Source: Hormiphora californensis
Taxonomy: Eukaryota; Animalia; Ctenophora
DNA: 64,000 nt
Reading direction: 5' to 3'
Assembly: GCA_020137815.1 (NCBI GenBank)
Contig: CM035353.1
Span: 8,432,001 to 8,496,000 of the forward strand
In this document: positions 6,801-9,800 of the stretch, piece after piece
Numbering within the stretch: position 1 is the first letter of the stretch
Layout of the letters: each line of letters starts with the position of its first letter
Position numbers and translations under genes: made by a program
The notes under the pieces: generated by a model
The model's database searches: none
What the model was told of the DNA's origin: nothing
The model's input: only the letters and a program-made list of their open reading frames with translations

Positions 6801-9800
6801 ACTTGACTTATGGCGGCCGGAGAGGTCGAGTAGTAATGAACGATCTCCAGTTATCCCGGTTGCACATAAGTTCAAGCATTTCGTTACTGTTATCACACAC
6901 CCCGTCCAGGTCTTGTAATAGGACATCTGGGAAGGTTAGTAACGGGCGGCCACGCCGCGCCTGGCCATGAGCTGGTTTCCACATTAGTAGTTCATGTCCC
7001 ACTAGGTCATCGTGTCTAGCAAGGTGCCCTGCCATTCTCAGTCTCTGGCTTCTAATCTTCTCAGTTACACGAGGAATATCTTGGAAAACCACGGCATTTG
7101 ACACTCTGTCCGCACACCTGATGTTCAGTGCTGCCCTCAGCATCCTCGAGTAACACCCATCAATCTTCTTGCCTAGGCTCTTGGTTATAGTCCACGTTTC
7201 AGATCCGTAGAGAAAGATAGTCTCGACAGTGGATCTGAATAACCTCACCTTCATCTTCCTAGACATCTTAGACTTCCAGACTCTGTTCATCTTATTTAGG
7301 GCACTCCATGCCTTAGCCTTCCTAACTTCGAAGTCTTTCACACTGTTTCCAATCCATGATCCCAGGTATACAAAGTCATCCACTTCATCCAGCAACTGTC
7401 CATCAGATGTTCTGATACCGTTGTGATCTGGACCAATGCTGTTAGTCATGTACTTCGTCTTACTACCATTTATGTGGAGACCAACAGATGCAGCAAACTC
7501 CTCCAGCCGGGCCAGGAATACCTGGGCCCCATCGATGGTATCAGCTAACAGAGCGAGATCATCGGCATAATCAGCATCTGTTAGCTTTTTAGCCGGGTAC
7601 CTTCTGCTCCTCCGTGGTTGGATAGTGAATCCAAGATCTACTCCTTCAAGAGTTTTCCTCATTATATAATCGATGGCTATAATAAAAAGCAAGGGAGCAA
7701 GAGTATCCCCCTGAAGAACACCGGCTAAGATCTGGAAAATCTCAGTCGGTCCATCCTCAGTGATTACACTTGCCACAGTATCCTGATAAAGGGCGTCAAT
7801 AAGGTCTACCAGGCGGTCGGGGACTCCATAAGCCGTCAGAATCTTCATTAGGATACCTCGATGAAGGGAGTCAAAGGCACGACGAAAGTCCACAAACAGG
7901 AGCACTGCCGTGATCTGTTTCGCCCTCGCACCCTCCAATATCCGTCTGAGACCTAATACGTGAGAGGATGTTGATCTACCCGGCCTAAAACCATTCTGCT
8001 CCGGTCTCAGGATGTCCTCAAAAGCTGGTGTCATTCTGTTTCTAATAAGCCTGTTTAAAGTTTTGGAAATAACGGAAGACAAGGCAATTCCTCTGTAGTT
8101 TTCCACCCTGGTCAAGTCCCCTTTCTTTGGCACTGGCATGATATTTTGGTGCCGCCATTGATCAGGGATGTTCTTGTTCATCAGAGCGTTGTTGCACATG
8201 TCCAGAATAATCTCATCCGTATCTACATATTTGACAATTTCAGGACTGATACCATCCTCCCCAGCCGCCTTACCCGACTTCAGCTGTTTTCTAGCTACTC
8301 TCAGTTCCTCCCTGGTGAATGGACCATCATCAATCTGAAGTTGGTGATCCAATACCGGAGCTATTTGGATGTTAGGGTCTGGTACTGTAGGTGGTTTACC
8401 AACCACTTCCGTCAATCCGAAAAGGTTCAGAAGCGATGATCAACAGGTCCGGTAAAAGAAAGCTGTGTGAATAAGTACGGGGCGGATGATCCGGTACAGG
8501 TAAAGGAAAACTGCGTCAATAAGTACGGGCGGATAATCACTGCACATCACTGGCTGTAACTGGAACTGATAAATTTACATCTGAACACCGTAGATCCCGT
8601 TACCCTGGGCCGGGATTGGGTTCCTGCACCTGGTGTCACACTGGAAGTAGACTGGAAAAGGGGTGTGTGAGACGCAGGGAGGATTCGGGATCAGGTCACA
8701 ATCTTCAATCTTCTACTAACGACAACAGATCTGTGACTAGCTATTACTGATCCCAGGGGCCCACGGCGGCTCCCTTCGCCCGCCTGATTTAGCCGTACAT
8801 CTTCCCTAGTACGTTTCCAGGAGGGACCGAACGTGGAGGTATCAGGTCGGACTTGTCCAGGATAGGTGTTAGCAAGGGCGGAGAGAAATGGGAACCTGGA
8901 CGCCACTGTGCTACCAAAATGCACTTCACTGGACCATTTCCCTCCCTTAGACGACAGTAAAAATAAACTTTTGAGTTTTTTTAAATTGCTCTAGTTGTTG
9001 CTAGGGAACAAAACCATTATGTCTAGGTGTATAGTGGATAAGAGAGGGCTATTATATATTTATTGAGCTGAATAAAAATATGTAGCTCTTGGTGCATCTA
9101 AACATTATCCCTAGAAAGGGAGCACAGAGAGATTAGCGTGTCTAAATAAAGACTAAATATATAAAACAATGTATGGGAGACTAACCTGTATGCTGGGCGA
9201 CCGGCGGGTGGTTTGCTCGACTAGTGACTGTTTGTTTTTGTACAAACAGATGCAGAAAGTTATATATTGATTGAGGGATAAAGAGAACAAGGGTCTGAAG
9301 CAGGTAGACGTTTTGCAAGCCCCCTTTCTGATGTAGATGAACTGCACCAGAACTCAGATGTTTCTGAATTGTAAAGAGTGCTAAAAGTTTGGAAACAATA
9401 GCAGCTTCCAAGAACGAGAAAGATCATGGGTTTTAATGAGTAGTGCAGAATCAAAACAGACAGACAGCTCACAATCACTCGGGTAATATAGCAACTAGCA
9501 ATTGACTCCAATGAGTACAGTCATGTGACTGACACTGACCATGTGATGACCACCACACTTTTTGGTGGGGCAGCGTGGCCATTTTACATATTACTGCATA
9601 ATACCGTCTCCTAACACCTAACACCCTCACTAACCCCCTCCTCTACCTCCTCCTCTCCTAACCCACTCCTCCATCCCCTCTCAGGTGATGCTGACCATGT
9701 TCACGGACATTACCGAACCCTCACTGTGCCTGCTGTGTACAGTAGAGAGGCTGCCCTTTGCAGGACACATGATCGCTATAGCCCTCACCCATGCCCACAA

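What the first reader, a model, noticed from the sequence alone, without database searches (positions are those of the whole stretch)
8783..8946. Complete HDV-like ribozyme defines the 5' end of an RTE retrotransposon
Seen: every HDV nested double-pseudoknot element is present on the minus strand in order. P1 is GGGAGGG/CCCUCCU with a G-U at +1, followed by a ~93-nt J1/2 insert containing its own GUCCAGG/CCUGGAC stem. Then P2 CCUGAU/AUCAGG, P3 ACC/GGU, P1.1, P4 CGUAC/GUACG and J4/2 GCUAA (catalytic C at 8792). The predicted cleavage site at 8946 coincides with the element boundary next to the putative GTCTAA TSD. Known: HDV-like ribozymes process the 5' ends of R2 and RTE retrotransposons. This copy is invisible in the ORF track and may extend their known host range.
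Basis: partly seen in the sequence, partly recalled or inferred. Interest (0 to 1): 0.72.

Follow-up and report, generated by a model that had tools for sequence, protein, structure and literature searches.

The report
Comb-jelly retrotransposon with HDV-type ribozyme head
A young jumping gene in what is likely a comb-jelly genome begins exactly at a hepatitis-delta-type RNA fold, backed by matched base changes in relatives, that is predicted to cut the element's RNA free of longer transcripts; this is a known arrangement in a probably new host group, and cutting is untested.

Summary
The fold is real. It is the only HDV-descriptor hit in the window (0 in 100 shuffles), and a model built from six relatives alone ranks it first. 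P1 has wholly different letters in relatives yet pairs 7 of 7 in 4 of 6. An empty-site contig and other insertions put the element's start at 8946. Corrections: the J1/2 stem uses 8934-8929, not 8901-8895; P2 extends to 8778; the duplication may be 7 bp. [quoted passage not shown] This copy lacks 1612 bases, including its endonuclease, and lies antisense in a TTI1-like intron. The host is likely a ctenophore; three paper searches found no ctenophore HDV-like ribozyme. Oddities: a 9-nt L3 loop (7 in relatives) and a competing 12-bp helix. RTE ribozymes are published, and this scan noted them before on other DNA (155 notes, at least 35 genomes). New member of a known kind; cleavage untested.

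The parts
8946..8952 (-). Upstream copy of the target-site duplication (6 bp to 8947, or 7 bp counting the G at +1)
   Evidence: Same 7 letters at 6787-6793; empty-site joint 6786 to 8946 with 7 ambiguous letters in runs X1 and X5
8940..8946 (-). P1 5' strand; predicted cut between 8947 and 8946
   Evidence: 7 of 7 pairs with 8825-8819; lies just before the conserved AAUGG linker as in L001, L004, L033
8855..8934 (-). P1.2 domain of J1/2 (80 nt), closed by 8934-8929 with 8860-8855; 5-nt linker before it, 2-nt linker after it
   Evidence: Minimum-energy fold of J1/2 alone; 4 of 6 pairs change on both sides among six sequences
8880..8891 (-). Strand that can pair 12 bp with 8945-8934 and block P1 and P1.2 (competing helix)
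   Evidence: chance 25 of 5000 and 299 of 5000 shuffles; not seen in L001, L004, L033
8841..8852 (-). P2 5' strand: 5-bp extension 8852-8848, bulged A 8847, 6-bp P2 8846-8841
   Evidence: extension 5 of 5 pairs here, in L003, L004, L006, L033, 4 of 5 in L001
8826..8840 (-). P3 (3 bp) with 9-nt L3 loop 8837-8829; C8836 and C8835 form P1.1
   Evidence: L3 is 7 nt in all six relatives; 9 nt also in family contigs of runs X1 and X7
8814..8825 (-). P1 3' strand 8825-8819, then GG of P1.1 (8818, 8817) and AAA
8794..8813 (-). P4, 5 bp with a 10-nt loop
   Evidence: a sister subfamily in run X7 differs at 5 loop places and at no stem place
8789..8793 (-). J4/2, with the predicted catalytic C at 8792
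   Evidence: the G-C is invariant in 7 of 7 aligned sequences
8778..8788 (-). P2 3' strand with its extension
8404..8777 (-). Rest of the retained 5' untranslated region
   Evidence: Covered by the 3721-nt family contig of run X1 with 3 differences over 8404-8944
8403..8403 (-). Junction of a 1612-base internal deletion that removed the start codon and the endonuclease domain
   Evidence: Joint 8402-8404 with 1612 letters between; P0001 residues 12-543 match P0002 492-1023, whose endonuclease is at 66-302
6808..8402 (-). Remaining open frame: reverse transcriptase and C-terminal part
   Evidence: Pfam RVT_1, E 7e-32; 86% identical to P0002
6794..6810 (-). Short-repeat tail of AAGU(C) units starting at the stop codon
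   Evidence: Sequence; the same kind of tail in L001-L007
6787..6793 (-). Downstream copy of the target-site duplication; its first letters continue the tail repeat
4474..9684 (+). Intron of a TTI1-like host gene that holds the element in antisense orientation
   Evidence: Three exons match Pfam TPR_TTI1_N in order (profile 1-31, 59-109, 117-175), each weakly and below the curated cut-off

Best explanation
This is a large HDV-like ribozyme fold at the exact 5' end of a young RTE-type retrotransposon family in what is likely a ctenophore, and it is predicted to cut before G8946 and so release the element's RNA from read-through transcripts. Shown: the fold, its covariation, its coincidence with the element boundary, the empty site, the deletion. 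Inferred from drz-Agam-2-1 (PMC4908430): the P1.2 domain, the 5- and 2-nt linkers and the 11-bp P2 would pinch P1 and P2 together and speed cleavage; C8792 would be the catalytic base. Inferred from RTE and R2 work: the cut RNA is the template for target-primed reverse transcription, so that full-length copies begin at +1. This copy has lost its endonuclease and could move only with protein from intact copies; being antisense, it would not cut the host TTI1-like pre-mRNA.
For: Unique descriptor hit, 0 of 100 shuffles. A model from six relatives without the window ranks 8766-8846 first of 15 hits, 23.9 bits, E about 5e-4. P1 pairs 7 of 7 in the window, L001, L004 and L033 with three different sequences; the window's 5' strand makes only 2, 2 and 1 pairs with the relatives' 3' strands. 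Against L004, both sides differ in 5 of 7 P1 pairs, 3 of 6 P1.2 pairs and 1 of 5 extension pairs. On alignment A3, 90.7% of cells pair against 78.9% shuffled and 34-45% slid, and 10 pairs change on both sides against 3.1 (0 of 500). Boundary: empty site in 2 of 4 runs; 4 contigs of other insertions leave the window's sequence at 8946 or 8947 and a fifth at 8938. All 5 loci that fall in the window's supported clade carry the core. A 4-nt J4/2 after the G with a U-A pair is an active form in antigenomic HDV (PMC2175327, passages).
Against: No cleavage data. L3 is 9 nt, longer than in the six relatives (7), genomic HDV (8, PMC1874588) and the published descriptor. A 12-bp helix that blocks P1 dominates the pseudoknot-free ensemble at 3 of 4 transcript lengths (p 0.90-0.999), and constructs with alternative pairing were inactive in PMC4908430. 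P1 is broken in 2 of 6 relatives with upstream DNA (L003 3 of 7, L006 5 of 7) and L007 lacks everything before P2; I read these as 5' junction damage but did not prove it. Only about three independent P1 types support the covariation, and P3, P1.1 and outer P2 hardly vary. No Rfam HDV family matched. The next model hit in the window, a purine-rich stretch, scores 19.2 bits. The strand folds no better than shuffles (z +0.41). No expression evidence.
Confidence: 0.78

Rival explanations
1. The fold is homologous to active ribozymes but is slow or dead in this lineage, because of the 2-nt L3 insertion or the competing helix; the 5' end is then set by an internal promoter or by slow cleavage.
For: 9-nt L3 against 7 in six relatives; competing helix favoured in pseudoknot-free folds; published cases of well-folding R2 ribozymes without activity (PMC3774820 section 12).
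Against: P1, P1.2 and the P2 extension were all rewritten on both sides in this lineage and still pair; the family is young (14 differences in 2109 bases from the X1 contig, and an empty site exists) and starts at +1; the 9-nt loop is shared with a sister subfamily; P1 with P1.2 wins once the P1 3' strand is transcribed (p 0.996).
Confidence: 0.15
2. The conserved structure serves mainly as a protein-binding or translation element of the 5' UTR, and cleavage is incidental.
For: IRES-like and protein-binding roles are proposed for R2 and L1Tc ribozymes (PMC6765202, passages); the fold lies about 600-800 nt upstream of the start codon in relatives.
Against: Catalytic positions (G+1 pair, U and G of L3, P1.1, J4/2 C) are the invariant ones, and the element boundary equals the predicted cut site. 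The roles are not exclusive.
Confidence: 0.05
3. Chance match of short helices in a G-rich and C-rich stretch.
For: The window holds 112 places that could pair 7 of 7 with this P1 3' strand; no Rfam hit; descriptor tuned after the fact.
Against: 0 of 100 shuffles; independent model hit; positionally homologous covarying helices; match to the insertion boundary.
Confidence: 0.02

Closest known systems
drz-Agam-2-1, large HDV-like ribozyme of Anopheles gambiae (Webb et al. 2016, PMC4908430; part 1 of 4 and passages read)
   Same: Nested double pseudoknot; structured P1.2 domain in J1/2; extended P2 (12 bp there, 6+5 here); short linkers on both sides of P1.2.
HDV-like ribozymes at the 5' ends of RTE, R2, R4, R1, Ingi/L1Tc and LOA elements (Ruminski et al. 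2011, not held, seen only as cited in PMC3774820, PMC5786205, PMC6765202, passages)
   Same: Predicted cut site coincides with the element's 5' junction; promoter-independent release from a co-transcript is the proposed role.
   Different: Host is likely a ctenophore; not site-specific like R2; P1 is element-encoded, unlike many arthropod R2 elements that borrow 28S sequence (PMC3774820 section 12).
RTE-clade non-LTR retrotransposons (Tay et al. 2010, PMC2887409, passages)
   Same: Single frame of about 1020-1050 aa with AP endonuclease and reverse transcriptase in intact relatives; very short 3' end of simple repeats right after the stop codon; target-site duplication.
   Different: This copy lacks the endonuclease half; 5' UTR of relatives is long (744-834 nt); clade placement was not tested against reference elements.
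Internally deleted non-autonomous LINEs such as Bov-A, NARTc, RIME (Kojima 2018, PMC5786205, passages)
   Same: Keeps both ends, including the ribozyme, and has lost the middle.
   Different: Keeps 1.6 kb of coding sequence; the deleted form is not shown to have multiplied (no contig spanning the junction appears in the tables, which are cut).

Membership tests
HDV-like ribozymes | Nested double pseudoknot P1, P2, P3, P1.1, P4 in the right order | tested here: met
HDV-like ribozymes | Purine at +1 paired at the base of P1 (usually G-U or G-C) | tested here: met
   G8946-U8819; G-U in L001 and L033, G-C in L004
HDV-like ribozymes | Conserved L3 bases (U first, Y-Y of P1.1, C-G at 5-6) and J4/2 C-N-R-A | tested here: met
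   L3 begins UCCACG; J4/2 CUAA; compared with the descriptor in the supplement of PMC4870747
HDV-like ribozymes | Pairings kept by compensatory change among relatives | tested here: met
   P1, P1.2, P2 extension; few independent lineages; P3 and P1.1 nearly invariant
HDV-like ribozymes | Mg2+-dependent self-cleavage 5' of +1 that needs the J4/2 cytosine | not testable with these tools
   Needs an in vitro assay
Published RNArobo HDV descriptor (a search rule, not the family definition) | L3 of 7-8 nt and J1/2 of at most 51 nt | tested here: not met
   L3 9 nt, J1/2 93 nt against figure S11 (the optional-base sign is lost in the text and is my reading). The same file says known members exist that do not fit the descriptor.
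Rfam HDV families | Score above a family threshold | tested here: not met
   No HDV family among 52 window hits or the 1 hit on 8700-9050; long J1/2 inserts are a likely reason (inference)
drz-Agam-2 type large HDV-like ribozymes | Stable P1.2 domain, extended P2, short linkers | tested here: met
   80-nt domain, 11-bp P2, 5- and 2-nt linkers against PMC4908430
RTE clade | One frame with AP endonuclease and reverse transcriptase, no ORF1 | tested here: met
   Met in intact relatives P0002, P0003, P0015, P0260; no ATG frame above 71 aa in five 5' UTRs; the window copy itself has lost the endonuclease
RTE clade | Very short 3' end of simple repeats and a target-site duplication | tested here: met
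RTE clade | Reverse transcriptase groups with RTE-1, BovB, JAM1 in a tree | not tested
   No reference elements came from any tool; the tree holds relatives only. One Bolinopsis member is named craniofacial development protein 2-like; its link to RTE endonucleases is recalled, not tested.

The most novel reading that the evidence does not exclude
The ctenophore lineage has an active HDV-like ribozyme with a 9-nt L3 and a built-in anti-P1 strand that holds it off during early transcription and flips to the active fold only when the P1 3' strand emerges, a folding switch that would tune which transcripts release the element; and the P1.2 / long-P2 design is shared from comb jellies to mosquitoes and so may be as old as animal RTE elements.
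Probability: 0.15. Interest if true: 0.55.

Novelty: new member of a known kind. Interest (0 to 1): 0.32.

Why it matters
If it cleaves, it carries RTE-associated HDV-like ribozymes into Ctenophora, one of the two earliest-branching animal groups, and shows that the large-domain design studied in one mosquito ribozyme recurs there. It also supplies a natural test of how long L3 may be, and it shows why standard descriptors and Rfam miss such ribozymes. RTE elements move horizontally (PMC6007223, abstract), so presence in comb jellies does not date the ribozyme. The mechanism itself is known.

Tried and rejected
No whole genome is held, so copy number and a genome-wide junction survey could not be done. 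No second copy in the window by blastn or tblastn. Rfam gave no ribozyme. Viral contigs gave no relatives; the 6 genome-contig loci are in bacterial bins, probably contaminant contigs, and none carries the core. RNA: run X14 (RNA is a guess) has one 151-nt contig at depth 2 over 8740-8878 and X16 one at depth 2; no evidence either way. In one search my parser took the wrong 5' strand for L033 and the wrong J4/2 for L006; one search corrects both. In alignment A3 the L033 P1 strand is off by one column and P2 and P4 are out of register, so one search counts only P1, P1.2, P3 and P1.1; the P4 comparison rests on my register. No microhomology is evident at the deletion junction: one unmatched base. 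The published RTE insertion signature (TSD starting with T about 10 nt after a T stretch, PMC6007223, abstract) is inconclusive at one site: a T stretch lies upstream but the duplication starts with G. Ruminski 2011, Webb 2009, Webb and Luptak 2011 and Jimenez 2015 are not held; their species tables and supplements may list ctenophore or long-L3 examples that I could not see. The preprint 10.64898/2026.03.07.710320 mentions ctenophores only as an analogy (passages).

Full report
Observation. A descriptor search of both strands of the window found this locus only, and nothing in 100 shuffles made block by block with dinucleotides kept. I set the descriptor's limits after seeing the candidate, so this is a chance control and not a blind search. 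Rfam has no matching ribozyme family here (0 HDV hits among 52; 1 unrelated hit), and the strand does not fold better than its shuffles (z +0.41), as expected when pseudoknots are not modelled.

The element. The frame at 8439-6808 encodes a reverse transcriptase. Its stop codon runs straight into a tail of short AAGU(C) repeats, and 7 letters at 6793-6787 recur at 8952-8946. Contigs of 4 public runs were laid on 6600-9200. Runs X1 and X5 hold the empty site, a joint from 6786 to 8946 with 7 letters that fit either side, so the insertion is polymorphic and its ends are known. Run X1 holds a 3721-nt family contig that covers 8944-8404 and 8402-6835 with 14 differences in 2109 bases and 1612 extra letters at 8403. 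The window copy is therefore young and internally deleted. Its protein starts at residue 492 of the 1023-aa relative P0002 (86% identical), whose endonuclease lies at 66-302. Single frame, short repeat tail and duplication are the features given for RTE elements in PMC2887409 (passages); a tree with reference RTE proteins was not possible.

The boundary. In one search (runs X5, X7, X16, X14 on 8740-8990) 10 loose ends are listed. One is the empty site; three, at 8851-8870, belong to a sister subfamily with a different J1/2; two lie downstream; four rows (5 contigs) go on into unrelated flanks, 4 contigs at 8946 or 8947 and 1 at 8938, whose loose letters still give +2 to +7 of P1 with A at +1. 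The G at +1 thus persists with different flanks and belongs to the element; at this site it also matches the target, so the duplication is 6 or 7 bp. These are DNA boundaries; contigs say nothing about RNA ends.

Relatives. A scan of metagenome contigs kept 80 of 468 relatives, and genome contigs gave 6. Six of these 86 loci carry a clearly related core upstream of the frame (L001, L003, L004, L006, L007, L033); most of the others are fragments without a 5' region, and several more distant ones have other HDV-like cores. A covariance model built from those six alone ranks the window's 8766-8846 first of 15 hits (23.9 bits, rough E 5e-4; next 19.2 bits); over the 86 loci it finds the six and three weak hits. 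P1 pairs 7 of 7 in the window, L001, L004 and L033, each time just before a conserved AAUGG linker, with three different sequences; the window's 5' strand makes only 2, 2 and 1 pairs with the others' 3' strands. L003 (3 of 7) and L006 (5 of 7) have a broken P1 and L007 begins at P2; these look like damaged 5' junctions but count against a perfect record. On the unedited alignment A3 (six sequences, both broken ones included) 90.7% of cells pair against 78.9% in shuffles and 34-45% in slid controls, and 10 of 18 pairs change on both sides against 3.1. The tool warns that related sequences can beat shuffles, and there are only about three independent P1 types.

Refined anatomy. The same stem closes 148-171-nt domains in relatives, with 4 of 6 pairs changed on both sides. 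P2 continues past a bulged A for 5 pairs to 8778, also in relatives, with a G-C for U-A change in the window. That leaves linkers of 5 and 2 nt. This is the layout of drz-Agam-2-1, where P1.2, an extended P2 and short linkers together speed cleavage by orders of magnitude (PMC4908430, part 1 of 4). I reached that paper through earlier AI notes of this scan and looked for the P2 extension after reading it. J4/2 is one base shorter than in most relatives, but a form without the extra base and with a U-A pair at the bottom of P2 cleaves like wild type in antigenomic HDV (PMC2175327, passages).

Two oddities. L3 has 9 nt; the six relatives have 7, genomic HDV has 8 (U20-U27, PMC1874588, passages), and the published descriptor allows 7-8 by my reading (supplement of PMC4870747, part 3). 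The extra bases lie 3' of the conserved positions, and the X1 family contig and a sister subfamily in X7 have no gap there, so this is a lineage trait and not damage to this copy. Second, 8891-8880 can pair 12 bp with 8945-8934. In pseudoknot-free ensembles this helix has probability 0.999, 0.91, 0.002 and 0.90 for transcripts ending at 8878, 8853, 8817 and 8770; P1 with P1.2 wins (0.996) as soon as the P1 3' strand exists, and the last figure cannot count the pseudoknot. By my rough sum the native fold (-45.1 plus about -12 to -16 for P1, before pseudoknot penalties) is on a par with the best alternative (-58.5). The helix is absent from L001, L004 and L033, and its chance level is 25 of 5000 or 299 of 5000 shuffles, found after the fact. 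It may be a kinetic trap, a switch or an accident.

Host and context. A neighbouring WDR70 gene has Mnemiopsis leidyi as its best named match (672 bits against 422 for the next named animal). The cluster closest to the element's protein holds a Pleurobrachia bachei protein; others hold Bolinopsis and Mnemiopsis proteins. In a 39-row tree (20 loci, 19 proteins; L048, L074 and L038 dropped for short matches; midpoint root) the window, five ribozyme-bearing loci and all four named ctenophore rows share a clade with support 95/95, L001 is practically the Bolinopsis protein, and L033 lies outside on a long branch. The host is thus likely a ctenophore, species not determined. The element sits in intron 4474-9684 of a TTI1-like gene, three exons of which match the Pfam model weakly and in order, on the opposite strand, so the host pre-mRNA would not be cut.

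Mechanism. Shown: fold, covariation, boundary, empty site, deletion. Inferred: read-through transcription crosses an intact copy, the ribozyme cuts before G+1, the freed RNA is translated and reverse-transcribed at a nick where the tail pairs with the target, and complete copies start at +1. This follows published work on R2, L1Tc and RTE (PMC3774820 section 12 and passages; PMC6765202 passages; PMC5786205 passages). Confidence that the family's ribozyme is active and sets the 5' end: 0.78.

Novelty. The arrangement is known, and the scan holds 155 notes with these words from at least 35 genomes, none with the word ctenophore and no look-alike sequence. Paper searches for ribozyme + ctenophor + HDV, RTE clade + non-LTR + ctenophore and self-cleaving ribozyme + ctenophor returned 3, 0 and 5 papers; the passages read in PMC13188248, PMC5035012 and one preprint describe no ctenophore HDV-like ribozyme; PMC8557442 was seen in the listing only. 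The primary surveys are not held, so absence from print is not established. Verdict: new member of a known kind, with a likely new host phylum and a slightly enlarged core loop; interest 0.32.

Noticed in passing
window 4690-4880 and 5800-5990: Two arrays of short tandem repeats in inverted orientation bracket about 1 kb in the same intron; looks like a foldback or MITE-type DNA element.
   Followed up: no
window 31314-32222 (-): 302-aa frame with an AP-endonuclease domain, no reverse transcriptase frame beside it in the ORF list and no blast match to the retained part of this element.
   Followed up: partly
L034:343-420, L026:156-230, L017:979-1050: HDV-like cores whose L3 begins UGC instead of UCC; L034 has G-C in J1/4, which would flip one P1.1 pair, and a 7-bp P1 16 nt upstream. 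An earlier AI note describes a flipped core in RTE elements.
   Followed up: partly
L054:369-541, L056:110-279, L066:634-754: Distant relatives with weak model hits whose best P1 begins with C or U rather than G.
   Followed up: no
window 8440-8770 (-): The 5' UTR holds a short tandem duplication and a long hairpin (about 8754-8688); the majority contig of organism B skips 8487-8590 and 8614-8769, so UTR length differs between subfamilies.
   Followed up: partly
window 38621-40303 (-): WDR70-like gene with a 560-aa uninterrupted frame, used to place the host; an Ets-domain frame lies at 42771-43415.
   Followed up: partly
window 40557-40674, 49351-49462, 54289-54469, 55219-55503: Long near-perfect inverted repeats that draw sub-threshold microRNA hits in Rfam; probably palindromic insertions.
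   Followed up: no
L081-L086: RTE-like proteins in six bacterial genome bins, most likely eukaryotic contamination.
   Followed up: no
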